Positions 3,301 through 60,234 of a stretch of 64,000 nt of DNA are shown piece by piece (position 1 is the first letter of the stretch; the number at the start of each line of letters is the position of its first letter). The DNA is from Rhodospirillales bacterium. GTDB lineage: Bacteria; Pseudomonadota; Alphaproteobacteria; Rhodospirillales; UBA2165. The stretch is taken from assembly GCA_028823885.1 (NCBI GenBank), contig JAPPFK010000140.1, positions 394 through 64,393 on the forward strand, in the 5' to 3' direction. The notes under the pieces were generated by a model that saw only the letters and a list, made by a program, of their open reading frames with translations, made no database searches and was not told the origin of the DNA. The position numbers were made by a program, and so were the translations under genes.

Positions 3301-3351
3301 GCTTGCGGTCCAACCGCTCGCCGGGGGAGGGTCAGAGAGGGGCGCAGGGCG

Positions 3352-5085
3352 TCAGAATATGGGAGGTTCCGGCGTTTCGGCGCCGGCGTGCAGGAAGTCG
3401 AGATCGCACCCCTTGTTCGCCTGGGTCACGTGCCGGGCGTACAGCGCGGTGTAGCCCCGCTCATACGGGAACGGCCGGGGCGTCCATGCCTTTCGGCGCG
3501 CTTCCATCTCGTCGTCCGGAATATCGGCGTTCAAGCGGCGCCCGGGGATGTCGAGATCGATCATGTCGCCGGTTTGGATGAGCGCCAGGTTGCCGCCGAC
3601 CTGCGCCTCGGGGGCGACGTGCAGAATGCAGGTGCCGTAGGCGGTGCCGCTCATCCGGCAGTCGGAAATCCGCACCATGTCGCGCACCCCCTTCTCCAGC
3701 AGCTTCTTGGGAATCGGCAGCATGCCCCATTCGGGCATGCCGGGCGCGCCGATGGGCCCCGCATATTTCAGCACCAGCACCGAGTCCTCGGTGACGTCCA
3801 GGCCGGGGTCGTCGATGCGGTCGTGGAGGTCCTGGTAGCCCTCGAACACCACCGCCGGACCCCGATGGACATGGAACCTGGGATCGGCCGCGGTTTGCTT
3901 GATCACACACCCGTCGGTGGCGATGTTCCCCCTGAGTATGGCCGTACCGCCTTCGTGATAGAGCGGATTGTCGAGGGGGCGGATGACCTCGTCGAGATAG
4001 ACCTCGGCGCCCTCGAGGTTGTCGGCGAGCGTTCCCCCGGTGACCGTTTTCTGGGTCAGATCGAGCTGGCCGGTCAGCCGGGTCATCAGCCCGCGCAGTC
4101 CGCCCGCGTAGTAGAAGTCCTCCATCAGGTATTTGCCCGAGGGTTTGATATCGAGAATGACCGGGGTCTTCTTGGAGATCTCGTCGAAGCGCTCCAGCGT
4201 GAGTTCGATCCCGGCCCGCCCGGCGACGGCGATCAGATGGATCATGGCATTGGTCGAACCGCCGAGGGCCATATCGATGACCGTGGCGTTGTCGAAGGAA
4301 GCCCGGGTGAGGATGTCGGAGGGTTTCAGGTCTTCCCACACCATGTCGACGATCCGCCGGCCGCTGGCCGCGGCCATCAGCGCGTGGCTGGAATCGACCG
4401 CGGGAATCGATGAGGCGCCCGGCAGGGTCATTCCCAGGGTCTCGGCAATGGACATCATGGTCGCGGCGGTGCCCATGACCATGCAGGTGCCGGCGGAACG
4501 GGAGAGACCGCCGACGACATTCTCCATCGTCTCGTCGTCGATCAGGCCGGCCCGCCGGTCGGCCCAATAGCGGAGCACGTCGGTGCCGCTGCCCAGGGTC
4601 TCTCCGGCGAAGAAGCCGCGCAGCATGGGGCCGGCGGGCACGTAGATCGCCGGCAGGTCCATGGTCAGCGCCGCCATGAGGAGGGCAGGGGTGGTCTTGT
4701 CGCAGCCGCCCATCAGGACGACGCCGTCGACGGGATGGCAGCGGATCAGTTCCTCCGCCTCCATGGCCAGGAAGTTGCGGTAAAGCATGGTCGACGGCTT
4801 GACCATGATTTCGCCCAAGGACATGGCGGGCAATTCGATGGGGAAGCCGCCGGCCTCGTAGACGCCCCGTTTGATCTCCTCGGCCCGCTGCTTGAAGTGG
4901 GAGTGACAGGTGTTCATGTCGCTCCACGTATTGATGATGCCGATCTTGGGCTTGCCGGTGAAGTCTTCGCCCGAATAGCCCATTTGGCGGGAGCGCGCGC
5001 GGTGGCTGACGGAACGCATGTCGCTCGGCCCGTACCACCGTTGGCTGCGAAGGTCTTCGAGTTTCTTCCGGGTTTTTGTGGCCAC
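3352..5085 (-). CDS. IlvD/Edd-family dehydratase, L-arabinonate (sugar-acid) dehydratase-like
   Basis: GTG start; INTWSDMNTCH, MLYRN, GGCDKTTP, GTCMVMGTA, LGGSTNA, GMPEWG and RMSGT motifs. Confidence 0.88.
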   Translation of the reverse strand: MATKTRKKLEDLRSQRWYGPSDMRSVSHRARSRQMGYSGEDFTGKPKIGIINTWSDMNTCHSHFKQRAEEIKRGVYEAGGFPIELPAMSLGEIMVKPSTMLYRNFLAMEAEELIRCHPVDGVVLMGGCDKTTPALLMAALTMDLPAIYVPAGPMLRGFFAGETLGSGTDVLRYWADRRAGLIDDETMENVVGGLSRSAGTCMVMGTAATMMSIAETLGMTLPGASSIPAVDSSHALMAAASGRRIVDMVWEDLKPSDILTRASFDNATVIDMALGGSTNAMIHLIAVAGRAGIELTLERFDEISKKTPVILDIKPSGKYLMEDFYYAGGLRGLMTRLTGQLDLTQKTVTGGTLADNLEGAEVYLDEVIRPLDNPLYHEGGTAILRGNIATDGCVIKQTAADPRFHVHRGPAVVFEGYQDLHDRIDDPGLDVTEDSVLVLKYAGPIGAPGMPEWGMLPIPKKLLEKGVRDMVRISDCRMSGTAYGTCILHVAPEAQVGGNLALIQTGDMIDLDIPGRRLNADIPDDEMEARRKAWTPRPFPYERGYTALYARHVTQANKGCDLDFLHAGAETPEPPIF

Positions 5086-6025: not shown

Positions 6026-6106
6026 CCCGGCAGTCTTTCGTTAATCTCTCGCGCTTAAAAGGCGGATGTTGTACTGCTCGTTGTCAATTGGGTGGAGTTG
6101 GTGTGA

Positions 6107-7099: not shown

Positions 7100-7103
7100 G
7101 GCG

Positions 7104-8078: not shown

Positions 8079-8096
8079 GGCGTGAGGCGGGAAGGA

Positions 8097-9248: not shown

Positions 9249-9290
9249 CCGGAACCGGCCAACCTCCGACCCTGTGACGGAGAACATCCC

Positions 9291-9941: not shown

Positions 9942-10972
9942 TGGCCGACGAAGAGGAACCCGTTCCCGAACCCCGGGAAACCCATATTCTCCTCGGTCAG
10001 GCGGAGGCTGAGCGCGAGTTTCTGCACGCTTTCGATACCGGCCGTCCGGCGCACGCCTGGCTGATCACCGGCCGCCAAGGAATTGGCAAGGCGACGCTCG
10101 CCTTTCGTCTCGCCCGGACCATCCTGTCCGGTGAGGCGCCCGACGCCCATGATCCCGAGGCCGCGCTTTTCCGGCGGGTCGCGTCGGGCGGACACGCCGA
10201 TCTCCTGGTCGTCGAGCGGGCGGTCGTTGAGCGGGACAAGGACGAGAATCCGGTCAAGCGCCGGGCCGAGATTACCGTCGACGATGTCCGGGGCGTCCGC
10301 GAGTTCCTTTCCAAGACCCCGGCCGAGGGCGGTTGGCGGGTGGTGGTCATCGACAGCGCGGATCAGATGAACACCAACGCGGCCAACGCCGTTTTGAAGA
10401 TTCTCGAGGAGCCGCCGTCCCGTGCAATGTTGCTGTTGCTGGCCCACAATCCGGGCCGCTTGCTGCCGACCATCATCTCCCGCTGCCGCCGGCTGCCGGC
10501 CAAGCCCCTGGGCGAGGAAGATCTGGTCGAACTGCTGGTCCGGCTGCGCCCGGAGATGAGCATCGAGGACCAGCAAATCCTGGTGCAAACCGCCGACGGC
10601 AGTATCGGCCGCGCGCTCGGCTATTCGAAGGGGGGCGGGTTGGGCCTCTATCGCGACGCGGTCGCCTTGTTGGAAAACCTGCCGGGCCTCGACGTGGCGG
10701 GTGTCCACAAATTGGCCGACGGCGTTGCCCGGGACAAAACCGGCGAGGCCTTCCAGACCGTCGGCGACCTCATGCGATGGTGGGTTCACCGAACCATCGA
10801 CGGCCAGGTTCGCGGTTCCGTTTCGGCTTCCGCCGCCGGTCTTGATCGCTGGTTTGAGGTATGGGAAAAGAACAACCGCTTGTTCGAGCGGGCCGACAGC
10901 GTGAACCTCGACCATAAACAAGTGATATTGAACGCCTTTGCGGCCATTGACGCCGCCCATTCATCATCGTAG
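9941..10972 (+). CDS. holB: DNA polymerase III subunit delta'
   Basis: [39 protein letters not shown] and LLPTIISRC motifs; follows tmk. Confidence 0.93.
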
Positions 10973-11010
10973 AGACCCTCGGGCCCACTGGCCTTTCCGG
11001 GAGAATATTC

Positions 11011-12564
11011 GTGGCCGACAAGACGCCCTATTACATCACCACGGCGATAGCCTACGTCAACGGGCCGCCCCACCTCGGGCATGCCTATGAGGCGATCTCG
11101 ACGGACGTGATGGCGCGCTTCAAGCGTCTGGACGGATATGACGTGCATTTCCTGACCGGCACCGACGAGCACGGCCAGAAGGTCGAGAAATCGGCCATCG
11201 CGGCGGGCAAGGACACAAAGAGCTTCTGCGATGAAATCGCCGGCGCCGTCCGGGACATGGACGCCATGCTCAACGTCTCCAACGATGATTTCATCCGCAC
11301 CACCGAGCCCCGGCACTATGCGGCAAGCCAGGGGATCTGGAAGCTGCTGGACGATGCGGGCGACATCTATCTCGGCAAGTACGAGGGCTGGTATTCGGTG
11401 CGCGACGAGGCCTATTTCGACGAGAGCGAACTGACCGACGGGCCGGACGGCAAACTGGCGCCCTCGGGCGCGCCGGTCGAGTGGGTGGAGGAGCCCAGCT
11501 ACTTCTTTAAGCTTTCGGAATATACCCAGCCCCTGTTGGACCATTACGAGGCCAATCCGGACTTCATTCTGCCCGCGACGCGCCGCAACGAGGTGGTGAG
11601 CTTCGTCAGCCAGGGGCTGCGCGATCTCTCCATATCGCGGACCACGTTCAAGTGGGGCGTGCCGGTGCCGGGCGACGCAGACCACATCATGTATGTGTGG
11701 CTGGATGCGCTGACCAACTACATCACCGGTCTGGGTTTCCCGGGCCGGGACGGGATGTTCGCCACCCACTGGCCGGCGGACCTGCACGTCATCGGCAAGG
11801 ATATCGTCCGCTTCCACGCGGTCTATTGGCCGGCGTTCCTGATGAGCGCCGGAATCCCCCTGCCGAAGCGGGTGTTCGGGCACGGCTTCCTCAATATCGA
11901 GGGGGAGAAAATGTCCAAGTCCCTCGGCAACGTGCTGTCGCCCGATGCCCTGGTCGGCGAGTTCGGTCTCGACCAGATCCGCTATTTCCTGCTTCGCGAG
12001 GTGCCCTACGGCAACGACGGCTCGTTCTCGCGCGAAGGCATCATTCAGCGGATCAACAGCGATCTCGCCAACGATCTCGGCAATCTCGCCCAGCGGGTGC
12101 TGTCGATGATCAACAACTACTGCGATGCGGCGGTGCCGGCGCCCGGCGAGTTCACCGGCGAGGATCGGGCCCTGCTGGAGCAGGCCCACGGTGCGCTGGA
12201 AGCGGCACGGTCTCATTTCGAGGTGCAGGCCTTCCATGAGGCGCTCGAGGTCATATGGAAGATCGTCCGGGCGGCCAACGCCTATGTGGACCGTCAGGCG
12301 CCCTGGGAACTCAGAAAGACCGATCCGGAACGGATGGCGACCGTGCTCTACGTGCTGGCCGAGGTGATCCGGCATCTGGGTATCCTGTGTCAGCCGTACA
12401 TGCCGGATTCCTCGGCACGTCTGCTGGACCAACTGGAGATTGCCGCGGACAAGCGGGATTTCGCCGCCTTGGGCCCGGATGACGCGCTCGCCGCCGGTAC
12501 CGCGTTGCCCAAACCGTCGGGTATTTTCCCGCGCTACGTCGAAGAGGCCGCGAAGGCCGGGTAG
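11011..12564 (+). CDS. metG: Methionine--tRNA ligase (short form)
   Basis: GTG start; HLGH (HIGH), [23 protein letters not shown] and KMSKS motifs. Confidence 0.97.
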
Positions 12565-12572
12565 GGGGCTTC

Positions 12573-13349
12573 ATGCTCGTCGACAGCCATTGCCATCTGG
12601 ACTATCCCGACTTCGCCGAAGAACTGCCCGCCGTGCTTGAGCGCGCCAAGGCCGCCGGCGTCGGGCATATGGTGACCATCTGCACCCAATTGTCCAAGTT
12701 CGACGGGGTCAAGGCGGTCGCCGAGGCCCACGACAACATCTACTGCTCGGTCGGTATTCATCCCCATGACGCCGGAAAAGAGCCTCGAACCACGGTTCGG
12801 GAACTGGTCGAACTGACCGGCCACCCGAAAGTGGTGGGCATCGGCGAAACCGGGCTCGATTTCTACTATGACAACAGCCCCCGGGACGACCAGGAAGCCA
12901 GCTTCCGCATTCATATCGGGGCTGCCCGGGAAACCGGCCTGCCGCTGATCATTCACACCCGGGACGCCGACGACAAGACCATCGAAATCCTCGACCAGGA
13001 GCAGGAAAAGGGTGCGTTTCCGGGCCTTATCCACTGTTTTTCGGTGGGCCGCGGGGTTGCCGAGGCGGCCATCCGGCACGGCATGTACATCTCGCTGTCG
13101 GGCATCCTGACGTTCAAGAACTCGGACGAACTGCGGGATATCGTCAAGGATCTGCCCCTCGACCGGTTGCTGGTCGAAACCGATGCGCCGTTCCTGGCGC
13201 CGGTGCCCAAACGCGGCAAGCGCAACGAGCCGTCCTTCGTCCGGCATACGGCCGAATTTGCGGCGGATTTGCTGGGAATTCCGTTTGCCGAGCTGGAACG
13301 AGCGACCACGGACAACTTCTTCCGGCTGTTTTCCAAAGCGGCGGCCTGA
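12573..13349 (+). CDS. tatD: TatD family nuclease
   Basis: DSHCHL, GIHP, IGETGLD, IIHTR and ETDAPFL motifs. Confidence 0.93.
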   Translation: MLVDSHCHLDYPDFAEELPAVLERAKAAGVGHMVTICTQLSKFDGVKAVAEAHDNIYCSVGIHPHDAGKEPRTTVRELVELTGHPKVVGIGETGLDFYYDNSPRDDQEASFRIHIGAARETGLPLIIHTRDADDKTIEILDQEQEKGAFPGLIHCFSVGRGVAEAAIRHGMYISLSGILTFKNSDELRDIVKDLPLDRLLVETDAPFLAPVPKRGKRNEPSFVRHTAEFAADLLGIPFAELERATTDNFFRLFSKAAA

Positions 13350-13360
13350 GGCGCAATTCC

Positions 13361-14140
13361 GTGCGGGTCACCATTCTCGGCGCCGGCAGTTCAGGCGGAA
13401 CGCCGCTGATCGGCGTCGGCTGGGGCGATTGCGCTCCGGAAAACCCCAGAAACCGCCGGACGCGGCCCTCCATCCTCATCGAACAGGACGAAACGGTCAT
13501 TCTGGTGGATACGTCGCCGGATTTGCGGGAGCAGTTGCTCCGCGCGGATGTTCAGCGCCTGGATGCGGTTCTCTATACCCACGCCCATGCCGACCATCTG
13601 CACGGGATTGACGATCTGCGGGCCATCAATCGGGCCCACAGCACCGATATTCCCATCTATCTGGACGCACCGACGCTGCGCGAAATCGAGACCCGGTTCG
13701 GCTACGTGCTCACGCCGCTGCCGGACGGCACGGATTTCTATTTCAAGCCCGTCCTGGCGCCCAATTTGATTCGCGCCGGCGATACATTCGCCGTCAACGG
13801 GATCGAAATCACGTGTTTCGACCAGGATCACGGCGTGGCCGGCCGGACCCTCGGGTTTCGGATCGGCGGCTTTGCATACACCACGGACGCGGTCGAACTG
13901 CCGGATGAGGCTTTCGATGCCTTAAGGGGTCTCGATACCTGGGTGGTCGGCGCGCTGGGCAGCGCTGAGCATCCGACCCATGCCCACGTGGACAAGGCGG
14001 TCGCGTGGATCGAACGGGCAGGGCCGCGCTGCGGCGTCATCAGCCACATGTCACACCGCCTGGATTACGCCAAATTGGCGGCATCATTGCCGCCGAATAT
14101 CGAGCCGGCCTATGACGGGATGGTGCTTGAAATAAGCTAG
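13361..14140 (+). CDS. MBL-fold metallo-hydrolase (PhnP/YcfJ-like)
   Basis: GTG start; THAHADHLHGIDD motif, DQDHG, YTTD, HPTHAH; conserved metG-tatD-MBL order. Confidence 0.9.
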   Translation: MRVTILGAGSSGGTPLIGVGWGDCAPENPRNRRTRPSILIEQDETVILVDTSPDLREQLLRADVQRLDAVLYTHAHADHLHGIDDLRAINRAHSTDIPIYLDAPTLREIETRFGYVLTPLPDGTDFYFKPVLAPNLIRAGDTFAVNGIEITCFDQDHGVAGRTLGFRIGGFAYTTDAVELPDEAFDALRGLDTWVVGALGSAEHPTHAHVDKAVAWIERAGPRCGVISHMSHRLDYAKLAASLPPNIEPAYDGMVLEIS

Positions 14141-14216
14141 AACAATTCCTTATTTATCGCCGTAACGACGATAATCAACCCATTGATAATTAATAAGTTT
14201 AAGATTTGTCGCATAT

Positions 14217-14244
14217 AAAATACATAATATATATTATGCGACAA
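14217..14244 (-). other. dif: dif-like XerCD chromosome dimer resolution site
   Basis: Minus strand reads TTGTCGCATAA-TATATA-TTATGTATTTT, 19/28 identical to E. coli dif (GGTGCGCATAATGTATATTATGTTAAAT) and 18/19 over positions 5-23. It is intergenic and AT-rich, and KOPS polarity flips around it. Confidence 0.85.
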
Positions 14245-14583
14245 TTGGGTGTGGGTTGATGCGGCACATCAGGTCCGGGCCGGTCGGGCAAGGGTCTCTC
14301 CCCCGGCGGTTCGCGGCAAAATGCCAGGAAGCCGGGATCGGCGTTGATCGCGCCTTTCGATCGAGTTCACTAGGCTGGAATCCGGGAAAAATTCCCAAAA
14401 ATGCCGCACTCTCCCGAGGTCCAGCGGCATTGAAGGACTTTCCTCGAAAGTACTGGTATTTTGCCCGGTAAACCGGCGCAGCCCGGGTTTGTGCCCCGAT
14501 ATTTCGTGTCACGCGGACGCGGGCTTGCCCGGCGCCGGGATTGATGTACTAAGGGGGTTGGCTCTCGCACAGGAATTGTTCCC

Positions 14584-15384
14584 ATGACCGAACACACGAT
14601 AGATCGCCTCAAATGGATTATGGCCCGGCTGCGTGACCCGGAGACCGGCTGCCCATGGGATGTGGAGCAGAACTTCGCCTCCATCGCGCCCTACACCATC
14701 GAAGAGGCATATGAGGTGGCGGACGCGATCGAGGCAGGCGATATGGAGGCCTTGAAGGACGAACTCGGCGATTTGCTGTTGCAGGTGATTTTTCATTCCC
14801 AGATGGCCGATGAGCGGCGGGTCTTCGACTTCGACGACGTAACGGAGACCATTTCCGACAAAATGGTCCGCCGGCACCCCCACGTGTTCGAAGATGAACA
14901 TGTGGGCGATGCCGAGGCGCAGACCCGGGCGTGGGAAGAAACCAAGGCCCGCGAGCGCAAGGCCAGGGCGGCCGACGATCCGGACCACAGCGCGCTTGAC
15001 GGCGTGGCCAAGGGTCTCCCTGCCCTGCTCCGCGCGCTCAAACTGCAGAAGCGGGCGGCGCGGGTCGGTTTCGACTGGCCCGGCGCGGAGGGAGCGCTGG
15101 CCAAACTTCGCGAGGAAATCGATGAGCTTTCGCAAGAGGTCCGCCGCCCGGGCGCCGACAAGGAGAAACTGGCCGACGAGCTGGGCGATGTCCTGTTTTC
15201 GGTGGTGAATCTGGCCCGAAAGCTGGGCATGGACCCCGAAGCGGCGCTGCGTCACGGCAACGCCAAATTCGAGCGCCGGTTCAGGATCATGGAGCGGCGG
15301 CTGAAATCGGCCGGCCGGGACCTGAACGGGGCCGGACTCGATGAAATGGAAGCCGAGTGGCGGCAGGCAAAGGCCGCCGAATAG
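14584..15384 (+). CDS. mazG: Nucleoside triphosphate pyrophosphohydrolase MazG
   Basis: LRDPETGCPWD, IEEAYEVADAI, ELGDLLLQV, RRHPHVF, and a second domain with ELGDVLF. Confidence 0.96.
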   Translation: MTEHTIDRLKWIMARLRDPETGCPWDVEQNFASIAPYTIEEAYEVADAIEAGDMEALKDELGDLLLQVIFHSQMADERRVFDFDDVTETISDKMVRRHPHVFEDEHVGDAEAQTRAWEETKARERKARAADDPDHSALDGVAKGLPALLRALKLQKRAARVGFDWPGAEGALAKLREEIDELSQEVRRPGADKEKLADELGDVLFSVVNLARKLGMDPEAALRHGNAKFERRFRIMERRLKSAGRDLNGAGLDEMEAEWRQAKAAE

Positions 15385-15454
15385 CGCGGAACCCCTCGCG
15401 CCCGGCGGATCGATTCCACCGACGATCCGGCTCCGGGGCTGGTTGCCTCCGGCC

Positions 15455-16270
15455 CTAGATCGCCTTCAGCAGCCGGTCGAGTTCGTTCCAGCCGGCGTTG
15501 TCCGGCGCCAGCAGAAGTCGCTCGTGCTGGATGCCCATGGGCCTGTACGCCGATCCGTCCTCGACAAACCGGCTGCAGCCGCCGGCTTCCCCGTGAATGA
15601 GAATGCCCGCGGCATGGTCCCAGGGCTTGAGCATGGCGTATTCGGCGAAATGGAGCCTGCCGAGGGCGAGGTCCATATATTCGCGGCCCGTGCATCCGTA
15701 TCGGGTAACGCGGGCGGGGACCGCACCGGGTTCGGCGGTTTCGCCGTGCCGGTGAAGGCGTTCCCGCCGCCGCTTGTTCATTGAGCCGGTCATGTTGCCG
15801 ACGGACGTGTCTTGCGGGATGCGGACTTGTCCCTCCCCGGTCCAGGCGCCCTCTCCCCTGGCCGCCATCAGCATCACATCGTTCAGCGGATCGTAGATCC
15901 ATCCGCGCACCGTTTCACCCTTGTCCGCGAGTGCGATGATCACGGCGAAACAATGAAGCCCATGGGCGAAGTTGCGGGTGCCGTCCAGCGGATCGACGAT
16001 CCACGCCGGGACATCTCCGGCGAGCCGGTCGAGCACCGCAAGGTCGGCGGAGACGGCTTCCTCGCCGACGACGACGGTCCCGGGCGCCATCCGGGAGAGC
16101 GCTTCCGTGAACCGCGCTTCGGATGCCAGATCCGCCGCTGTCACCAGTTCGCCGGACTGCTTGTCCGACAGATGATGGCTCTCGAGCCGGTTGAACAGCG
16201 GCATGATCTCGGCGGCGCAGACCTCGCGGATGAGGTCGGCCACCGTCTCGAAGGGCGGCAGGTCTGTCAT
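15455..16270 (-). CDS. Inositol monophosphatase family protein
   Basis: LVTAAD, GEE, IVDPLDGTRNF and WDHAAG motifs. Confidence 0.9.
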   Translation of the reverse strand: MTDLPPFETVADLIREVCAAEIMPLFNRLESHHLSDKQSGELVTAADLASEARFTEALSRMAPGTVVVGEEAVSADLAVLDRLAGDVPAWIVDPLDGTRNFAHGLHCFAVIIALADKGETVRGWIYDPLNDVMLMAARGEGAWTGEGQVRIPQDTSVGNMTGSMNKRRRERLHRHGETAEPGAVPARVTRYGCTGREYMDLALGRLHFAEYAMLKPWDHAAGILIHGEAGGCSRFVEDGSAYRPMGIQHERLLLAPDNAGWNELDRLLKAI

Positions 16271-16644: not shown

Positions 16645-17949
16645 TCAATCGCCGGTCCGCCGCTGTTCCAGCCTGTCCGCGTCGGACGGGTCCAGCCGCA
16701 CCGTCAATTCGACGCTGTCTTCGCCATCGGTCCGGCTGATCACCTCTCCCTTCTTGTAGAGCCAGGAAAGCGTCTTGCCGTCCGCCCACGGCAGGCGGAG
16801 GCTGACCTCCCGGCGTTGCGCCGACAGGGTGTCATCGAGGGTCCGGCGCAGGTCGTCGCACCCCTCCCCGGTCATCGCCGAGAGCAGAATAATCGGGTTG
16901 TTGCTCCGTACGGCGCGGTTGCCGAGCGCGGCCCGGCCCTCGTCGTCCAGGCGGTCCGCCTTGTTCAGGACCTCGACCAATGGCCGGTCGCTTTGTTCGC
17001 CGGCACCCAGATCATCCAGCACTTCGAGGACATCGTCCTTTTGCGCCTCGGTATCGGGGTGCACGATATCGCGGACATGGATCAGGATATCCGCTTCGGT
17101 GACTTCCTCCAGCGTGGCGCGGAAGGCGTCCACCAGCTCGTGCGGCAGGTCCGACACGAACCCCACCGTATCGGAAAGGATGGCCGCCCGGCCCGACGGC
17201 AGCACCATTTCCCGCATGGTCGGATCCAATGTGGCGAAGAGCCGGTCCTTCGATGCCACCTTTGCCGACGTGAGCGTGTTGAACAGGGTCGATTTGCCGG
17301 CGTTGGTATAGCCGACCAGCGCGATCACCGGGTACGGCACGCGCCGGCGCGATTCCCGGTGCAGCCCGCGGGTCCGGCGGACTTCGGCGAGGTCTTTCTT
17401 GAGGCGGGTGATTCGATCGTCGATCATCCGGCGGTCGGCCTCGATCTGGGTTTCGCCGGGACCGCCCATGAACCCGAACCCGCCCCGCTGGCGTTCCAAG
17501 TGGGTCCAGGAGCGAACCAGGCGGCTTCTCTGATAGCTGAGTGCCGCCAGTTCCACCTGCAACGTGCCTTCCCGGGTCCGCGCGCGGGCGCCGAAGATTT
17601 CAAGAATCAGGCCGGTGCGGTCGATGACCTTGCACGACCATGCCCGTTCCAGATTGCGCTGCTGACCCGGTGTCAGCGCGGCGTCGACTACCGCCACGTC
17701 GATGTGGTCGGCGCGCACCTGATCCCCGATCCGCTCGACGGTCCCCTTGCCGAACAGCGTCGACGGGCGGACCTTCGTCACACCGACGATTTCGGATGCC
17801 GCAACGATCAAATCGATGGCCTGGGCAAGGCCGACACACTCGTCCAGCCGTGCCTCGGGTGTCCGGGCCCGCGCCGGTCGCTCCTTCAGAAAAGGATGAA
17901 CAACCAGGCAACGGCCGCTGGCCGGTCGTTGCTCGTCGCCGGAACTCAG
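16645..17949 (-). CDS. hflX: Ribosome-associated GTPase HflX (probable CTG start at 17949)
   Basis: GYTNAGKS, LFATLDPT, DTVGF and NKAD motifs. The frame stays open upstream of the TTG at 17811 and encodes the conserved N-terminus (CLVVHP...EARLDECVGLAQAID). Confidence 0.93.
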   Translation of the reverse strand: MSSGDEQRPASGRCLVVHPFLKERPARARTPEARLDECVGLAQAIDLIVAASEIVGVTKVRPSTLFGKGTVERIGDQVRADHIDVAVVDAALTPGQQRNLERAWSCKVIDRTGLILEIFGARARTREGTLQVELAALSYQRSRLVRSWTHLERQRGGFGFMGGPGETQIEADRRMIDDRITRLKKDLAEVRRTRGLHRESRRRVPYPVIALVGYTNAGKSTLFNTLTSAKVASKDRLFATLDPTMREMVLPSGRAAILSDTVGFVSDLPHELVDAFRATLEEVTEADILIHVRDIVHPDTEAQKDDVLEVLDDLGAGEQSDRPLVEVLNKADRLDDEGRAALGNRAVRSNNPIILLSAMTGEGCDDLRRTLDDTLSAQRREVSLRLPWADGKTLSWLYKKGEVISRTDGEDSVELTVRLDPSDADRLEQRRTGD

Positions 17950-18380: not shown

Positions 18381-19043
18381 TTATTGTGCGGCTATAACGG
18401 ATGTGAACGCCGCGAGATCGGCGAAATGCGCGGCATAGGTGATTCCGCCTAATTCGTTGGCATTAAACGCTTTTTCGCCAATCAGCACCCCTGTGCAGCC
18501 GCAGGCCGTGGCGAATCTCATATCGATTCCGGTATCTCCGATGTACCAGACTTTCACGCCCGGCCTTATCCCGGTCTCTTCAAGCACCAGATCCATCGCC
18601 GCGCGCGCTGGTTTGTCCTCCGCCGCATCGCCCGCGCCCACGGCCCTAACGATGTACCCTCTCCAGTCCAGGTGATCGATCTCGGCCCGCAGCAGGGGGC
18701 CCTGCTTGTTGCTGACCACGCCGACATGAGGCGCGGCTGCGTTGGCGGCCGCGAGCGCGTCCTCGGCGCCTCCCAGGACGGTGGTCCCCTCCAGATGGTG
18801 GGCCTCCACGTGTTCGTAGAATATTCGTCCGGCCTCTTCCCATCGGTCGCCGAACATTTCCGGGAACGCATCCCGCATGGATTTCCGGACCCGCGCCAAC
18901 ATCTCCTCATAGGTCCAGGTATCGTGCCCCATGGCTTCGAGGGTCGCGTTCATGGCGTTGTGGATCGATGGCCAGCAGTCGACCAGCGTTCCGTCCCAGT
19001 CAAAAATGATCGCTTCGGGGGGTTCCGTCGGCAGCATATTCAA
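18381..19043 (-). CDS. HAD-family hydrolase (phosphoglycolate-phosphatase-like)
   Basis: IFDWDGTLVD, VVSNK, KPA and IGDTGID motifs; start could be 19037. Confidence 0.88.
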   Translation of the reverse strand: MNMLPTEPPEAIIFDWDGTLVDCWPSIHNAMNATLEAMGHDTWTYEEMLARVRKSMRDAFPEMFGDRWEEAGRIFYEHVEAHHLEGTTVLGGAEDALAAANAAAPHVGVVSNKQGPLLRAEIDHLDWRGYIVRAVGAGDAAEDKPARAAMDLVLEETGIRPGVKVWYIGDTGIDMRFATACGCTGVLIGEKAFNANELGGITYAAHFADLAAFTSVIAAQ

Positions 19044-19912: not shown

Positions 19913-19919
19913 GGCGCGG

Positions 19920-25010: not shown

Positions 25011-25071
25011 GATATGGCCTGTTCCCCGCAGACACCCGGTGACGGGCGCCGCCGGTGATTCACTCCCTCCC

Positions 25072-26505
25072 CTATTTCGGACTTCTCAGGACAGGGATGT
25101 TGAGTTCGCGAATTTTCTTCCTGAGCGTGTTCCGATTCAATCCCAGCAACTTGGCGGCGCGCAGCTGGTTGCCCCGCGTCGCTTCCAGCGACAGCGAGAT
25201 AAGCGGCCGCTCGACCTCTTTCAGCACCCGGTCATAGAGCCCGGCCGGGGGCATGACATTGCCGTGCGCCGCAAAGTAGTCTCTCAAATGAATCTCGACG
25301 GCGTCGCCGATACCGTTGCCGGCGCGGTTGGCCGGTTCCGGCGGCGGCGATTCGGCCAGCTCGGCCTCGATCGCCTGGATGCCGATCGTTTCCTCCGAAT
25401 AAAGCGCGGCGAGCCGGCGGACCAAGTTTTCCATCTCGCGCACATTGCCCGGCCAATGATAGGCCTGCATTCGATCGAGGGCCGATTCGTCGATGCTCTT
25501 CCACGGCAAGCCCTCGTCGGCGCATTGGCCTAGGAAATGGCTGACCAGCTCCGGAATGTCCTCCCGGCGCTCGCGCAATGCAGGCATTCTGATCGGCACC
25601 ACGTTCAGCCGGTAATACAGGTCTTCACGAAACAAACCCTGGCGAATGAGCTGGGTCAGATCACGGTGCGTGGCGGCGATAATCCGGACATTGGCCTTGA
25701 TGGGCGTCCGCCCGCCGACCGTCGTGTATTCGCCTCCCTGCAGGACCCGGAGCAAACGGGTCTGAGCTTCGGCGGGCATGTCCCCGATTTCATCGAGGAA
25801 CAGGGTGCCGCCCTCGGCCTGCTCGAAGCTGCCGGATGCTCGCGCGGTCGCGCCGGTGAATGATCCCTTTTCGTGACCGAACAATTCGCTCTCGATGAGT
25901 TCGCGGGGGATCGCCGCCATGTTGAGGGCAATGAACGGGTGATGCTTGCGCTTGCCGTAGTCGTGCAGCGCGCGGGCGGCCAGTTCCTTGCCGGTGCCCG
26001 ACTCGCCGGAAATCAGGACCGTGAGGTCCGTGCCCATCAGCCGCGCAAGGGAGCGATACACCTCCTGCATGGCCGCCGAGCGGCCGATCAGGGGCAGCGA
26101 TTCGCCGCCGCCCTGCTTCGGCGCATCCTGGGGCTCGGGTGTGGTCTCCAATGCCCGCCGCACGACGCTGATCAGTTCGTTGAGGTCGAACGGCTTGGGG
26201 AGATACTCGAAGGCGCCCCGTTGGGTGGCGTTGACCGCGGTCATCATCGTATTTTGGGCGCTCATCACGATGACGCGAAGTTCCGGGCGAATTTTCTTGA
26301 TCCGGGGTATGAGGTCGAGGCCGTTCTCGTCGGGCATCACGACGTCGGTAACGACCACGTTGCCCTCGCCGTCGTTAACCCACTTCCACAGGGTGGCCGC
26401 GTTTCCGGTCGTCCGGACCTCGTAGCCGACGCGGCCCAGCGCCTGGCTGACCACCGTGCGGATGGCGCCGTCGTCGTCCGCGACGAGTATGGTGGAATTA
26501 GTCAT
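25072..26505 (-). CDS. ntrC: Nitrogen regulation protein NR(I), NtrC
   Basis: Start MTNSTILV at 26505; [28 protein letters not shown] and [10 protein letters not shown] motifs. Confidence 0.96.
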
Positions 26506-32409: not shown

Positions 32410-32486
32410 TGGTCGGGGAGACAGGATTTGAACCTGCGACCTTTCGACCCCCAGTCGAATGCGCTACCAGGCTGCGCCACTCCCCG
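32410..32486 (-). tRNA. tRNA-Pro(GGG)
   Basis: 77 nt: CGGGGAG acceptor stem, TGGCGCAGCCTGGTAGCGC D-arm, TTCGA-CTGGGGG-TCGAA anticodon arm, GGTTCAAATCC T-arm, encoded CCA. Confidence 0.96.
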
Positions 32487-45184: not shown

Positions 45185-46498
45185 TTAGAGGCCCGGATAA
45201 ATCGGGAAACGGGCGCACAGTTCGGAAACCTCGGCCCGGACCCGCTTCTCGACGGCTTCGTTTCCTTCGGGTCCGTTCCCGGCAAGTCCGTCGAGAACCT
45301 CGGCGATGAGTTCACCGACCTGGCGGAACTCGCCGGGACCAAACCCGCGGGTTGTTCCGGCCGGTGCCCCCAGCCGTATGCCCGAGGTGACCATCGGCTT
45401 CTCCGGGTCGAAGGGAATGGCGTTTTTGTTGCAGGTAATCCCTGCCCGTCCGAGACTGTCTTCGGTGATGTCGCCGGTCAGCCCCTTGGGCCGCAAATCC
45501 ACCAGCATCAGGTGCGTATCGGTGCCGCCGGAGACGATGTCGCATCCCCGCTCGGACAGGACGGACGCCAGTGTCTTGGCGTTCTCGACAACGGCCTGGG
45601 CGTAGCTCTTGAAGTCGGGACGCAGGGCCTCGCCAAAGGCGACGGCCTTGGCCGCGATCACATGCATCAGCGGCCCGCCCTGCAGGCCCGGGAAGATAGC
45701 CGAGTTGATCTTTTTGATGATGTCGGCGTCGTTGGTCAGGATCATGCCGCCGCGAGGCCCCCGCAGCGTCTTGTGGGTGGTCGTGGTGGCGATATGGGCG
45801 TGGGGAAACGGGCTCGGATGAACGCCGGCCGCGACCAGGCCGGCGAAATGGGCCATGTCGACCATCAACAGGGCGCCGGCCTCGTCGGCGATCGCGCGAA
45901 AGCGCTCGAAATCGATGATCCGCGGATAGGCCGAGCCGCCGGCCAGAATCATCTTCGGCCGATGCTCTTTGGCCAGCGCCTCGACCTCGTCGAAATCGAT
46001 CAGGGCGTCCTGCTTCCTGACGCCATACTGGACGGCATCGAACCATTTGCCCGACAGATTGGGTTTCGCGCCATGGGTCAGATGCCCGCCCGCCGCCAGC
46101 GACATACCGAGGATGGTATCGCCCGGCTGCAGGAGCGCCAGCATCACGCCTTGATTTGCCTGGCTGCCCGAGTGCGGCTGGACGTTGGCAAAGGCGCAGC
46201 CGAACAATTTTGCCGCGCGCTCGATGGCAATTTCCTCGGCCACATCCACATGCTCGCAGCCGCCGTAGTAGCGGCGGCCGGGGTAGCCTTCGGCATACTT
46301 GTTCGTCAGAACCGACCCTTGGGCCTCCAGAACCGCACGGGAGACAATGTTTTCGGACGCGATCAACTCTATCCGGTCCTGTTGGCGCGCAAGCTCTGCC
46401 CGAACCGAGTTGAATACATCCGGATCGCTGTCACCGATCCCCTCCCCGAAAAACGCCGTCATCCGGGAGGCGGCCGAATTGGCGCTCGCTACGGTCAT
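45185..46498 (-). CDS. glyA: Serine hydroxymethyltransferase
   Basis: [37 protein letters not shown] and GLQGGP motifs. Confidence 0.97.
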
Positions 46499-54607: not shown

Positions 54608-56977
54608 ATGAAACGAGTTCTGAAATATGCGGCTTACCTGCTGGCGTTGGTGGTGGTGATCGCCGCCGGCGGCATCCTGTGGCTGCGGACCTCCCTCCCC
54701 CCGGCGGAGCGCGCGGTCTCCGACCCGCTGCTTCGGGGAACGGTCGAGGTATTGTTCGACGAAAAGGATGTCCCTTACATCTTCGCGGAAAATCGCCGGG
54801 ACGCCGCGTTTGCCTTGGGCTTCGCCCATGCGGAGAACCGGCTTTGGCAGATGGAATCCCAGCGCCGGCTGGCGGCGGGACGGCTCTCGGAAGTCCTGGG
54901 CGCCCGCACGGTTCGCATCGACCGTTTCATGCGGACCTTGGGTCTTTACCGATCCGCCGAGGCTTCGTTCGCCGGGCTCGAACCCGCAACCAAGGCCACG
55001 TTCGAAGCCTACGCCGCGGGTGTGAACCGCTGGCTCGAAACCCGCTCGGGCGCCCTGCCGCCCGAGTTCGTGGCTTTGCGTCATGAGCCCGAGAGTTGGC
55101 GGCCCGCGGACTCGCTGGTATGGGGCAAACTGATGGCCCTCAGGCTCAGCGGCAACTTCCAGGACGAACTGCAGCGGCTGCGGGCGATGAATGCCGGCCA
55201 TGACCTGGAGCGCCTGAAGGAATTATGGCCGGACTATCCGGGCGACGGGCCGGTCACCGGCTGGGGACGGCGGGCGGAAGCGGACCCCGGTTACATCGGT
55301 CGTCTGACGGCATCGACGGCCGATGCCGTCCCGCGTTTCCGCGGCGCGTCGAATTCCTGGGCGATCGGCGGCGCCCGGACCCGAAGCGGCAAGCCGCTGC
55401 TGGCGAACGATCCCCACCTCGGGTTCGGCGCGCCGATATTGTGGTATCTCGCCAAGATCGTCACGCCCGAGGGGAAATTGACCGGGGCGACGGTTCCGGG
55501 CGTGCCGCTGCATGTTCTGGGTCATACCGACGGTCTCGCCTGGGGCCTGACGACGACCCAGACCGATCTCCAGGACCTTTTCGTGGAGACCCTCGATCCC
55601 GGGCGGCCCGATCATTACCTCACCCCGGACGGCCCTCGTCCGTTCGAAACCCGGGTCGAAACATTGGAAGTGCGCGGCGGCGAGCCCGTGACCTTCACGG
55701 TTCGCTCGACCCATCGCGGGCCGGTCATCTCGGATCTGGAGCCCGGCGAAAATCTGACCGTTTCCCTGCAGGCCGTGTTCCTGCGCGGGGCCGATACGAC
55801 GGCCCAGTCCGTTCTCAAACTCAATCGCGCGCAAAATGCGGGGGAGCTGCGGGCCGCCCTCAGGGATTTCAAGGCGCCTCAGCAGAACGTCATTTACGCC
55901 GACACCGGCGGCGTATTCGGTTTCATTTCAGCCGGCACCGTGCCGATCCGCAAATCCGGGCGCGGATTCGTTCCCGCAGACGGCGCCTCCGGCGAGGCGG
56001 ACTGGACGGGCGTCATTCCGTTCGACGAACTGCCCCAGTCCGAAAACCCCGCCGAGGGGTTCGTCGCCAACGCCAACAACAAGGTGACGCCGGAGGGCTA
56101 CCCCTACTTCGTGACGGTGGACTGGACGGCGCCCTACCGGGCCCGGCGAATTGTCGAGACCCTGAGAAACCTCGAAAAAGCCACCGCCGGCCGGATGTCC
56201 GGCCTGCAGATGGATTCGGTCTCCCTGGCCGCACGGGATCTCCTTCCCTTGATGCTCGATTTTCAAACCCGGGATGGCGAACTCCAAAAGGTGATGGGCC
56301 TGCTGCGCCGGTGGGACGGCGGCATGAACATCGATCGTCCCGAACCGCTGATTTTCGACCGCTGGCTCCGGTCGTTGAACCGGGAACTGTATGCCGACGA
56401 CTTCGGCGGCGCATTCGGCGAGTTCTGGCGGAGGCGGCCCCTGTTCATCCGGAACGTTCTGACGGGCGTATCGCCCTCGTGGTGCGACGATGTCGCCACC
56501 CGGGCGCCCGAAACCTGCGCCGCGGCGCTGGAGGCCTCGCTCACGGCGGCGCTGGCGGAACTCGCCGAGGCCACCGGCACCTCGAACCCGGCGCGCTGGC
56601 GCTGGGGCGATCACCACGTCGCCCGGTTCCGCCATCAATTTTTCCAGCATGTGCCGGTCGTCCGCATGCTCACCGATCTGAGCACCCCGACATCCGGGGG
56701 AAACTTCACGGTCAACCGGGGGACGACCCGGATGCGCAATCCCCGCGCGCCGCACGACCACATTCACGGCGCGGGATATCGCGGCGTCTATGATCTCGCC
56801 GATCTCTCCCGGTCCCGGTTTGTCATCGCCACGGGGCAGTCGGGAAACCCGTTCTCTCCGCACTATCGCGACTTTCTGCCGCTGTGGGCGTCCGGCGGGC
56901 ACGTGACCCTCGACAAGACCAAACGGCAACTGGAACAATCGGCGGCCCGCCGCCATACTTTCCGGCCTCGGCAATGA
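54608..56977 (+). CDS. Penicillin acylase family (Ntn-hydrolase, S45) with N-terminal membrane anchor
   Basis: GFAHAENRLWQM, beta-chain start GASNSW, LANDPHL, PQQN..YAD, ANAN and GQSGNPFSPHY motifs. Confidence 0.92.
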   Translation: MKRVLKYAAYLLALVVVIAAGGILWLRTSLPPAERAVSDPLLRGTVEVLFDEKDVPYIFAENRRDAAFALGFAHAENRLWQMESQRRLAAGRLSEVLGARTVRIDRFMRTLGLYRSAEASFAGLEPATKATFEAYAAGVNRWLETRSGALPPEFVALRHEPESWRPADSLVWGKLMALRLSGNFQDELQRLRAMNAGHDLERLKELWPDYPGDGPVTGWGRRAEADPGYIGRLTASTADAVPRFRGASNSWAIGGARTRSGKPLLANDPHLGFGAPILWYLAKIVTPEGKLTGATVPGVPLHVLGHTDGLAWGLTTTQTDLQDLFVETLDPGRPDHYLTPDGPRPFETRVETLEVRGGEPVTFTVRSTHRGPVISDLEPGENLTVSLQAVFLRGADTTAQSVLKLNRAQNAGELRAALRDFKAPQQNVIYADTGGVFGFISAGTVPIRKSGRGFVPADGASGEADWTGVIPFDELPQSENPAEGFVANANNKVTPEGYPYFVTVDWTAPYRARRIVETLRNLEKATAGRMSGLQMDSVSLAARDLLPLMLDFQTRDGELQKVMGLLRRWDGGMNIDRPEPLIFDRWLRSLNRELYADDFGGAFGEFWRRRPLFIRNVLTGVSPSWCDDVATRAPETCAAALEASLTAALAELAEATGTSNPARWRWGDHHVARFRHQFFQHVPVVRMLTDLSTPTSGGNFTVNRGTTRMRNPRAPHDHIHGAGYRGVYDLADLSRSRFVIATGQSGNPFSPHYRDFLPLWASGGHVTLDKTKRQLEQSAARRHTFRPRQ

Positions 56978-59487: not shown

Positions 59488-60234
59488 ATGAAACACAACA
59501 TAAACCGTCGGCCCACCGCCTTTTTCATAACCGCCCCCCTTCCCTGCCCCTACATTCCCGGCAACCTCGAACGCAGGATCGTCGCCGAGCTTTCGGGCTC
59601 CACGGCGCCCACGCTTCACGACACCCTGTCCCGGGTCGGGTTTCGCCGCAGCCACGGGCTGGTCTATGCCCCGGTCTGCTCGGGCTGCAACGCCTGTCTC
59701 GCCGTCCGAACCGTCGTTTCGGAATTCGAACCGTCCGCCTCGCAGCGCCGGGTATCCCGGGTGAACGAGGATTTGATCGAAGCGGTAAGGCCGGTCCGGG
59801 CGACCGCCGAGCAATTCGAATTGTTCGCCCAGTATCAGGACTCCCGCCACAACGGCGGCGACATGGCGACAATGGACTTTTACGACTACCAGGCCCTGAT
59901 CGAGGAGACCCCGGTCGATTCCGAGTTGATCGAATACCGTACCCCGGACCGCCGGCTGGTCGGGGCGTGCCTCGCGGACCGCATGGGCGACGGCCTCTCC
60001 GCGGTCTACAGCTATTTCCATCCAGCCGAGCCGCGCCGCAGTCTCGGAACCTACATGATACTGCGGCTCATCGAGCGGTCGCGGGACGCCGGGCTTCCCT
60101 ATGTCTATCTCGGCTATTGGATCGAGGACAGCCAGAAGATGTCCTACAAGGAACGTTTCAGGCCGCTTGAATATTACGCCGGCGATGGCTGGCGTTCGCT
60201 CGACGAGCGGCACGACTTTCCGGCGCTTGGCTAG
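59488..60234 (+). CDS. ate: Arginyl-tRNA--protein transferase family (Ate/Bpt, N-degron pathway)
   Basis: PCPY, GFRRSH, CSGCNAC..VR, LSAVYSYF, SLGTYMIL, YVYLGYWI and KMSYK motifs. Confidence 0.93.
   Translation: MKHNINRRPTAFFITAPLPCPYIPGNLERRIVAELSGSTAPTLHDTLSRVGFRRSHGLVYAPVCSGCNACLAVRTVVSEFEPSASQRRVSRVNEDLIEAVRPVRATAEQFELFAQYQDSRHNGGDMATMDFYDYQALIEETPVDSELIEYRTPDRRLVGACLADRMGDGLSAVYSYFHPAEPRRSLGTYMILRLIERSRDAGLPYVYLGYWIEDSQKMSYKERFRPLEYYAGDGWRSLDERHDFPALG

What the first reader, a model, noticed from the sequence alone, without database searches (positions are those of the whole stretch)
14016..15025. Chromosome terminus: a dif site bracketed by a KOPS polarity switch
Seen: minus-strand 14217-14244 reads TTGTCGCATAA-TATATA-TTATGTATTTT, matching E. 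coli dif at 18 of 19 central positions. A manual scan found GGGNAGGG on the + strand only to the left (3323, 4683, 12559, 14016). It found the complement CCCTNCCC only to the right (15018, 15831, 16862, 25065, 45440, 46440, 54693, 59537, 59542). That is 13 of 13 pointing at this interval, including sites in the mostly + strand genes beyond 46.9 kb, so the polarity is not a by-product of gene orientation. The nine genes at 5219-14140 are all +, and 32 of 37 genes at 14.6-46.5 kb are -. Established: FtsK reads KOPS towards dif, where XerCD acts. Inference: this is the terminus/dif of the replicon, a feature standard annotation would miss.
Basis: partly seen in the sequence, partly recalled or inferred. 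Interest (0 to 1): 0.7.

Follow-up and report, generated by a model that had tools for sequence, protein, structure and literature searches.

The report
Chromosome dimer-resolution (dif) site

Summary
The minus strand of 14217-14244 reads TTGTCGCATAA-TATATA-TTATGTATTTT. All 13 GGGNAGGG words in the window point at the interval that contains it. The 28-mer is a canonical XerC/XerD dif site. It matches E. coli dif at 18 of 19 central positions. Its XerC arm is identical to the one in the published dif predictions for Rhodospirillum rubrum and Magnetospirillum magneticum. It scores 50 bits against a matrix built from 115 dif sites; the next independent position in the window scores -16.

Related sponge-metagenome lineages show no change in 14218-14245, although both flanks vary densely. 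In loci chosen only for MazG homology, 17 of 19 with the MBL-hydrolase-then-mazG gene order carry a dif-like 28-mer between the two genes, in the same orientation as here. GGGNAGGG converges on those sites 75:14. Loci without such a site show 44:35.

One caveat applies to the polarity. Inside the window it is not specific to GGGNAGGG: all G-rich octamers of that composition are 74% polarised, independently of gene strand.

Whole-replicon tests were impossible, because only a metagenome fragment is available. These tests are uniqueness, position opposite oriC, and presence of xerC, xerD and ftsK.

Verdict: a real dif site and a new member of a known kind. Interest is low.

The parts
14217..14244 (-). 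dif site, 28 bp: TTGTCGCATAA-TATATA-TTATGTATTTT (G+C 5 of 28)
   Evidence: 50 bits; next independent position -16; invariant at 14218-14245 in related lineages
14234..14244 (-). XerC-binding arm TTGTCGCATAA (inferred by position in the consensus)
   Evidence: Identical to the XerC arm of the predicted R. rubrum and M. magneticum dif and of 16 of the 115 core-selected sites
14228..14233 (-). 6-bp central region TATATA, where strand exchange takes place (inferred)
   Evidence: TATATA in 34 and TGTATA in 81 of 115 sites
14217..14227 (-). XerD-binding arm TTATGTATTTT (inferred); the outermost base, 14217, varies in relatives
3324..3331 (+). GGGNAGGG (KOPS-type word) pointing right, towards dif
4683..4690 (+). 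GGGNAGGG pointing towards dif, inside a minus-strand gene (ilvD/edd family)
12559..12566 (+). GGGNAGGG pointing towards dif
14016..14023 (+). Innermost left GGGNAGGG, 194 nt from dif
15018..15025 (-). Innermost right GGGNAGGG, inside the plus-strand mazG
15831..15838 (-). GGGNAGGG pointing left, towards dif
16862..16869 (-). GGGNAGGG pointing towards dif
25065..25072 (-). GGGNAGGG pointing towards dif
45440..45447 (-). GGGNAGGG pointing towards dif
46440..46447 (-). GGGNAGGG pointing towards dif
54693..54700 (-). GGGNAGGG pointing towards dif, inside a plus-strand gene
59537..59549 (-). Two overlapping GGGNAGGG words (59537-59544 and 59542-59549) pointing towards dif, in a plus-strand gene
13361..14140 (+). 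MBL-fold hydrolase gene, conserved left neighbour of dif (preceded by tmk-holB-metG-tatD)
14584..15384 (+). mazG, conserved right neighbour of dif (followed by suhB-like, hflX and hfq on the minus strand)

Best explanation
14217-14244 (minus strand) is the chromosomal dif site of an uncultured, sponge-associated alphaproteobacterium of the Rhodospirillales type. It lies at the junction of the two replichores.

Proposed mechanism, inferred from E. coli, Vibrio and Caulobacter. When sister chromosomes form a dimer, septum-bound FtsK pumps DNA in the direction set by polarised G-rich words of the GGGNAGGG type. These words point at dif from both sides. XerC binds TTGTCGCATAA and XerD binds TTATGTATTTT. 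FtsK activates XerD, and a crossover across the TATATA centre resolves the dimer.

Shown here: the site, its consensus match, its selective conservation, its conserved gene neighbourhood, and the convergence of oligomer polarity on it. Inferred: protein binding, recombination, and FtsK reading of these particular words.
For: (1) Sequence. The site has the 11+6+11 architecture. It matches E. coli dif at 18 of 19 central positions, the predicted R. rubrum dif at 23 of 28 with an identical XerC arm, and an alphaproteobacterial MAG site (L021) at 27 of 28. The matrix score is 50 bits against -16 for the next independent position.

(2) The 21-nt core occurs once per locus in 120 genomes of many phyla. 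There GGGNAGGG points at it 188:20. It is both the most frequent and the most skewed of the 42 letter arrangements.

(3) Footprint in relatives that were not chosen by the site. Contigs from four other runs show no change in 14218-14245. They show 9 variable places in 14201-14217 and 7 in 14246-14257, and several lose all likeness exactly at the outer edge of the 28-mer.

(4) Non-circular synteny test. Of 19 MazG-selected metagenome loci with MBL followed by mazG, 17 have a dif-like 28-mer between them on the strand opposite to the genes, as here. KOPS there is 75:14 towards the site, against 44:35 in 25 loci with no site.

(5) In the window. GGGNAGGG is 13 of 13 towards the site. The G-rich octamer change point lies at 14016-14296 with a log-likelihood gain of 9.1. 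The cumulative GC-skew maximum is at about 16 kb. The polarity is independent of gene strand. Gene orientation switches at 15.4 kb.

(6) The genes are core chromosomal ones: tmk, holB, metG, tatD, hflX, hfq, ntrBCYX, fabH/plsX, the rib operon and glyA. There is no plasmid match.
Against: - No xerC, xerD or ftsK lies in the 64 kb, so presence of the machinery is unverified.
- Uniqueness and position opposite oriC are untested, because the source genome was not retrievable.
- GGGNAGGG is not over-represented in the window (13 against 14.4 expected). It is no more polarised than some other G-rich arrangements.
- The change-point likelihood is flat from about 12.5 to 18 kb.
- Mononucleotide GC skew to the right of the site is very weak.
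- The outer XerD-arm bases (ATTTT) are among the less common variants.
Confidence: 0.88

Rival explanations
1. The 28-mer is a genuine Xer-type site but not the acting dimer-resolution site of the replicon. It could be a secondary or relict dif-like site, for example one left by a mobile element that integrates at dif (IMEX), with the working dif elsewhere.
For: - Some chromosomes carry two dif-like sites (Azospirillum preprint).
- About a quarter of proteobacterial dif sites are flanked by mobility genes (PMC2731167).
- An extra inverted XerC-like arm abuts the site at 14206-14216.
- Whole-replicon uniqueness was not tested.
Against: - There is no room for an element: 76 nt separate the site from the MBL stop, and 339 nt separate it from the mazG start.
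- There is no second dif-like site in the window.
- The site sits at the oligomer-polarity change point.
- It holds the same position in 17 of 19 protein-selected relatives.
- The 5-6.5 kb of extra DNA next to dif in some relatives encodes ordinary metabolic and transport genes, not phage or mobility genes.
Confidence: 0.06
2. The polarity switch is real but is generic strand asymmetry of G-rich oligomers. GGGNAGGG is not specifically the word that guides FtsK in this organism. This concerns only the KOPS half of the claim and is compatible with the site being dif.
For: - All 42 arrangements together are 74% polarised.
- GGNGAGGG is 18:2 and GGGNGAGG is 17:3.
- GGGNAGGG is not enriched in the window.
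- An unbiased k-mer scan of 64 kb does not single it out, although GGGAGGG is 11:0.
- In Azospirillum only the GGGCAGGG variant was retained as KOPS.
- Lactococcus uses a different motif (PMC3384302, title and abstract).
Against: - Around the homologous sites in other genomes, GGGNAGGG is the most abundant arrangement (2.7-2.8 times the mean) and is strongly skewed. It is 90% against 75% in the core-selected loci, where it is the most skewed, and 84% against 76% in the MazG-selected loci.
- The polarity far exceeds what the weak mononucleotide GC skew would give.
Confidence: 0.25
3. The A+T-rich palindrome is a transcription signal or a chance palindrome rather than a recombination site. It could be a terminator of the MBL gene or a promoter or operator of mazG.
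For: - A 10-bp-stem hairpin at 14206-14244 folds at -8.5 kcal/mol, z = -3.8.
- Two weak sigma-70-like matches overlap it.
Against: - No terminator-like site was found.
- The outer hairpin arm is not conserved in close relatives, whereas the 28-mer is.
- The 28-mer matches dif across phyla and attracts KOPS convergence, which no transcription signal explains.
Confidence: 0.02

Closest known systems
E. coli dif / XerCD-FtsK chromosome dimer resolution with KOPS (GGGNAGGG)
   Same: It has a 28-bp site with 11-bp XerC and XerD arms around a 6-bp centre. Of the 19 central positions, 18 are identical. It is intergenic and A+T-rich. It lies at a switch of GGGNAGGG polarity and of GC skew.
   Different: The outer arm positions differ (19 of 28 overall). 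The centre is TATATA, not TGTATA. GGGNAGGG is not over-represented in this window, and other G-rich words are as polarised. No recombinase or FtsK gene is in view.
Predicted dif of Rhodospirillales: Rhodospirillum rubrum TTGTCGCATAATGTATATTATGGATAGA (Kono 2011) and Magnetospirillum magneticum AMB-1 (Carnoy & Roten 2009)
   Same: The XerC arm TTGTCGCATAA is identical. Identity to R. rubrum is 23 of 28. All are high-G+C alphaproteobacterial chromosomes.
   Different: The XerD arm's outer half differs (TTATGTATTTT against TTATGGATAGA and TTATGGCGACG). The centre differs by one base. Those sites were placed on complete chromosomes near the GC-skew shift point, which could not be done here.
dif sites of uncultured marine Alphaproteobacteria and SAR116 MAGs (L021, L003, L034, L036, L072, L088, L096)
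   Same: Identity is 25-27 of 28, with TTGTCGCATAA-TATATA-TTATGTA shared. In L036 and L079 (SAR116) and in L031, L062, L024 and L086 (Rhodospirillales/Rhodospirillaceae) the site also lies between the MBL hydrolase gene and mazG, in the same orientation.
   Different: Flanking non-coding DNA is unalignable. The genomes have much lower G+C (0.30-0.56). These sites are themselves unannotated predictions.

Membership tests
XerCD dif site (chromosome dimer resolution site) | 28-bp motif: two 11-bp partly palindromic arms around a 6-bp centre, matching the dif consensus | tested here: met
   18 of 19 central positions match E. coli; 50-bit matrix score
XerCD dif site (chromosome dimer resolution site) | Intergenic and of low G+C relative to the genome | tested here: met
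   the site lies between the MBL stop (14140) and the mazG start (14584); G+C is 5 of 28 in a 63% G+C window
XerCD dif site (chromosome dimer resolution site) | One copy per replicon | tested here: inconclusive
   Unique in the 64 kb; the rest of the replicon is not available
XerCD dif site (chromosome dimer resolution site) | Located at the replichore junction (GC-skew shift point, roughly opposite oriC) | tested here: inconclusive
   The local signals agree: cumulative GC-skew maximum at about 16 kb, oligomer change point at 14016-14296, gene-strand switch at 15.4 kb. Position relative to oriC cannot be tested on a fragment.
XerCD dif site (chromosome dimer resolution site) | Selective conservation of the 28-mer against diverging flanks in related genomes | tested here: met
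   no change in 14218-14245; 16 variable places in the adjoining 29 nt; 17 of 19 syntenic relatives keep a dif-like site
XerCD dif site (chromosome dimer resolution site) | Cognate XerC and XerD recombinases encoded in the genome | not testable with these tools
   No tyrosine recombinase appeared among the window's genes; the genome is not available
XerCD dif site (chromosome dimer resolution site) | XerC/XerD binding and FtsK-dependent recombination at the site | not testable with these tools
   Experimental; the organism is uncultured (sponge metagenome)
KOPS (FtsK-orienting polar sequences) | GGGNAGGG oriented towards dif on both sides | tested here: met
   4 of 4 on the left on +, 9 of 9 on the right on -
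KOPS (FtsK-orienting polar sequences) | Over-representation of the word | tested here: not met
   13 observed against 14.4 +/- 3.8 in shuffles. In the window it is 13 against a mean of 9.7 for other arrangements. Around homologous sites elsewhere it is 2.7-2.8 times enriched.
KOPS (FtsK-orienting polar sequences) | Skew beyond that of words of like composition and beyond gene-strand effects | tested here: inconclusive
   The skew is independent of gene strand. However, the 74% background polarity makes 13 of 13 only p of about 0.02, and two other arrangements are as skewed. The feature is clearly met in the pooled relatives.
KOPS (FtsK-orienting polar sequences) | Recognition by the FtsK gamma domain | not testable with these tools
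   ftsK is not in the window; a biochemical test is needed

The most novel reading that the evidence does not exclude
The window's site carries a third arm. A copy of the XerC arm (TTGTCGCATAT, 14206-14216) abuts the outer end of the XerD arm in inverted orientation, giving a perfect 10-bp inverted repeat across the whole site. Relatives have only a partial version. At least two positions (14206, 14211) are derived in this lineage, and both changes increase complementarity. The most novel reading not excluded is that this is a scar or product of a Xer-mediated or template-switch (quasipalindrome-correction) event at dif. It could also be an extra XerC-binding half-site that modulates synapsis.

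Separately, dif appears anchored between tatD-MBL and mazG-hflX-hfq across Rhodospirillales- and SAR116-type lineages whose MBL and MazG proteins are only 37-65% identical to the window's. That is an unusually stable terminus neighbourhood.
Probability: 0.1. Interest if true: 0.4.

Novelty: new member of a known kind. Interest (0 to 1): 0.2.

Why it matters
Locating dif fixes the replichore junction of an uncultured sponge symbiont's chromosome. That helps in orienting and closing MAG assemblies, in reading coverage-based growth estimates, and in spotting elements that integrate at dif.

The one observation of wider interest is a by-product. In a broad set of alphaproteobacterial lineages dif keeps the same neighbours (tatD-MBL | mazG-hflX-hfq) and the same orientation. 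Accessory genes are inserted next to it in some lineages. The MBL-mazG intergenic region can therefore serve as a cheap marker for the terminus in fragmentary assemblies of this group. None of this changes what is known about how Xer recombination works.

Tried and rejected
1. Finding the source genome for whole-replicon tests failed. Exact-protein look-up found only a 7.8-kb Logan contig from a sponge metagenome.

2. A plasmid or chromid origin was rejected: there are no meaningful plasmid matches, and the gene content is core chromosomal.

3. The invariant core in alignment A1 is circular evidence, because those loci were selected by the core. It is not used as evidence of conservation. It was replaced by the Logan-contig comparison and the MazG-selected loci.

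4. An unbiased k-mer polarity scan of the window is underpowered and confounded by codon usage, so it gave no clear KOPS call.

5. An integrated mobile element (IMEX) at dif was rejected for the window, which has no space and no second site. It was also rejected for the 5-6.5 kb insertions in L131 and L188, which encode metabolic and transport genes.

6. A terminator or regulatory hairpin was rejected.

7. Rfam found only a tRNA at 32413-32486 and nothing in the dif intergenic region.

8. The 11-nt perfect inverted repeat bracketing the whole intergenic region (14140-14150 and 14571-14581) is not conserved in relatives and is probably chance.

9. Jensen 2006 (Caulobacter dif) is not held.

10. 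My crude GC3 gene caller mis-called several genes. For example, 19076-19966 + is wrong, because 19040-20074 - has the Pfam hit. I also wrongly removed 29614-30768 +, which is ispDF. The strand tallies carry that small error.
Full report
**1. The observation**

Plus strand 14217-14244 is AAAATACATAATATATATTATGCGACAA, so the minus strand reads TTGTCGCATAA-TATATA-TTATGTATTTT. The 28-mer has no second match in the window at up to three mismatches. E. coli dif is GGTGCGCATAATGTATATTATGTTAAAT (Kono et al. 2011 supplement). The window's site therefore matches 18 of the 19 central positions and 19 of 28 overall.

GGGNAGGG occurs 13 times. Four lie on + at 3324, 4683, 12559 and 14016. Nine lie on - at 15018, 15831, 16862, 25065, 45440, 46440, 54693, 59537 and 59542. 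The nine genes at 5219-14140 are on +. About 31 of 36 genes between 14.6 and 46.5 kb are on -.

**2. Is the polarity more than chance?**

The count of GGGNAGGG is not enriched: 13 against 14.4 +/- 3.8 in shuffles. I counted all 42 arrangements of the same letters (six G, one A, one N, with N internal). Together they point towards a split at 14230 in 305 cases and away in 107, which is 74%. GGNGAGGG (18:2) and GGGNGAGG (17:3) are as polarised as GGGNAGGG (13:0). Against that background, 13 of 13 has p of about 0.02 rather than 2^-13.

The polarity is still real, and it is not a gene-strand effect:

| Side of dif | Genes on | Motif on + : on - |
|---|---|---|
| Right | + | 32:74 |
| Right | - | 43:131 |
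| Left | + | 39:12 |
| Left | - | 14:10 |

After collapsing overlapping hits, the maximum-likelihood change point lies between 14016 and 14296. That bracket contains the 28-mer. The log-likelihood gain is 9.1 over no change point, but the surface is flat from about 12.5 to 18 kb. Cumulative GC skew peaks at about 16 kb. Mononucleotide skew is weak, especially on the right, so the oligomer polarity is much stronger than base composition alone would give.

**3. What the 28-mer is**

Each locus had one match. The loci came from Proteobacteria, Desulfobacterota, Erysipelotrichales, the PVC group and others. The 115 full sites show the usual dif pattern: variable XerC outer bases and TTATGTA(A/T)(A/T)NT in the XerD arm. 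Several alphaproteobacterial MAGs are 25-27 of 28 identical to the window.

Published predictions for Rhodospirillales share the window's XerC arm exactly. R. rubrum is TTGTCGCATAATGTATATTATGGATAGA. M. magneticum is the reverse complement of CGTCGCCATAATATACATTATGCGACAA. A matrix from the 115 sites scores the window's site at 50 bits. The next non-overlapping position scores -16.

In those 120 loci GGGNAGGG points at the core 188:20. It is the most frequent arrangement (208 against a mean of 76) and the most skewed (90% against 75%) of the 42. This shows that the core marks true KOPS convergence points elsewhere.

**4. Conservation that is not circular**

The source is a sponge metagenome. Contigs of related lineages in four other runs were found through shared 31-mers over 13000-16000, not through the site. 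They show no difference anywhere in 14218-14245. They show nine variable places in 14201-14217 and seven in 14246-14257. Several contigs lose all likeness to the window exactly at 14212-14218. The footprint therefore coincides with the 28-mer, and only its outermost XerD-arm base (14217) is free to vary.

For a second test I fetched 80 metagenome loci by MazG homology alone. Of 19 loci that have the MBL hydrolase gene followed by mazG, 17 carry a dif-like 28-mer between the two genes. It is always on the strand opposite to the genes, as in the window, apart from one weak ambiguous case. GGGNAGGG points at these sites 75:14. In 25 loci without a dif-like site, measured around a mock site upstream of mazG, it is 44:35.

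The same neighbourhood is seen in Rhodospirillales, Rhodospirillaceae and SAR116 MAGs from the first scan (L031, L062, L024, L086, L036, L079). L039 and L100, both labelled only Alphaproteobacteria, show it in part.

**5. Context**

To the left of the site are mltB-like, rlpA-like and dacC-like genes, then tmk, holB, metG, tatD and the MBL hydrolase gene. To the right are mazG, a suhB-like gene, hflX, hfq, trkA, ntrX, ntrY, ntrC, ntrB, dusB, ispDF, an ihfA-like gene, fabH, plsX, a H+-pyrophosphatase gene, thiL, nusB, the rib operon, nrdR and glyA. This is a core alphaproteobacterial chromosome, and there is no plasmid match. No xerC, xerD or ftsK lies in the window.

**6. Mechanism**

By homology of the site with the E. 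coli, Vibrio and Caulobacter systems (PMC3025954, PMC2731167, PMC5357621):
- XerC would bind 14234-14244 and XerD would bind 14217-14227.
- Exchange would occur across 14228-14233.
- FtsK, steered by the polarised G-rich words, would activate XerD at the septum.

All of this is inference. What is shown is the site, its conservation, its neighbourhood and the polarity convergence.

**7. Rivals**

- A relict or secondary Xer site is unlikely. There is no space for an integrated element and no second site, and the position is conserved.
- A terminator or regulatory hairpin is excluded. No terminator-like site was found. The outer arm of the hairpin at 14206-14244 is not conserved, whereas the 28-mer is.
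- One question stays open: whether GGGNAGGG, rather than a related G-rich word, is what FtsK reads in this organism. In Azospirillum only GGGCAGGG was retained as KOPS.

**8. Novelty and score**

Predicting dif from a consensus, GC skew and KOPS is established practice. This site is a new member of a known kind.

Two minor points may deserve a note. One is the deep conservation of the tatD-MBL | dif | mazG-hflX-hfq neighbourhood. The other is a lineage-specific inverted copy of the XerC arm abutting the XerD arm.

Whole-replicon tests remain undone for lack of a genome. These are uniqueness, position opposite oriC, and presence of the Xer and FtsK genes. Interest 0.2. Confidence that this is the chromosome's dif: 0.88.

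Noticed in passing
window 14206-14216 (with 14235-14244): TTGTCGCATAT, an inverted copy of the XerC arm, directly abuts the outer end of the XerD arm. It gives a perfect 10-bp inverted repeat spanning the whole dif site (DNA hairpin -8.5 kcal/mol, z = -3.8). Close relatives differ at 14206, 14207, 14209, 14211, 13 and 14214. All sampled relatives share G at 14206 and A at 14211, so at least two changes in this lineage increased complementarity. It may be quasipalindrome correction or a Xer-related scar. It is not conserved, so it is probably not functional.
   Followed up: partly
window 13361-15384; loci L031, L062, L039, L024, L086, L036, L079, L122-L200: dif keeps the same neighbours (tatD-MBL hydrolase on the XerD-arm side, mazG-hflX-hfq on the XerC-arm side) and the same orientation across Rhodospirillales- and SAR116-type lineages. 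Their MBL and MazG proteins are only 37-65% identical to the window's. In MazG-selected loci, 17 of 19 with MBL followed by mazG have the site between them.
   Followed up: yes
L127, L131, L132, L169, L188 (between the MBL gene and mazG): In these relatives 5-6.5 kb of extra DNA sits immediately beside dif, on either side of it. In L188 it encodes a pxpABC-like 5-oxoprolinase, an OYE-type reductase and a LMW phosphatase. In L131 it encodes a heavy-metal P-type ATPase, an adenylate cyclase, an LTXXQ protein and a DOPA-dioxygenase-like protein. These are accessory cargo, not phage or mobility genes, and there is no second dif-like site. The dif flanks look like an insertion hot spot.
   Followed up: partly
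window 14288-14511: Relatives (X2, X3, X7) lack most of this G+C-rich stretch upstream of mazG. One has 71 nt where the window has 222. A short block near 14292-14320 (GGGTCTCTCCCC..GCGGTTCGC) is kept. A 13-nt inverted repeat (14315-14327 and 14453-14465) lies inside it. There is no Rfam match and no other copy in the window. The nature of the extra segment is unknown.
   Followed up: partly
window 14140-14150 and 14571-14581: A perfect 11-nt inverted repeat (GAACAATTCCT / AGGAATTGTTC) brackets the entire MBL-mazG intergenic region, from just after the MBL stop to just before the mazG start. Both arms vary in close relatives, so it is probably chance.
   Followed up: partly
window 14180-14196 and L062: A short A+T-rich block, CATTGATAAT(A)ATTAAT, upstream of the XerD arm is shared with the Rhodospirillales MAG L062 although the rest of the spacer is unalignable. 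Its function is unknown.
   Followed up: no
window 13361-14140: The MBL-fold hydrolase next to dif carries a precomputed hit to PF23023 (Anti-Pycsar_Apyc1) as well as Lactamase_B_2. It is a conserved housekeeping neighbour of tatD here, so the anti-defence label is probably only fold similarity.
   Followed up: no
window 46.9-64 kb: Gene orientation turns mostly + beyond 46.9 kb (mucR/ros, liv-type ABC transporter, metabolic genes, TRAP transporter). G-rich oligomer polarity stays that of the right replichore, so this block is transcribed mainly head-on to replication.
   Followed up: partly
L131 (contig Ga0080064_1000001, 2,281,163 bp): A syntenic relative with a dif-like site (AGATCGCATAATGTATATTATGGAAAAT, about 845.6 kb on the contig) lies on a 2.28-Mb metagenome contig that may be a near-complete chromosome. 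It would allow a replicon-scale test, but only 20 kb could be fetched.
   Followed up: no
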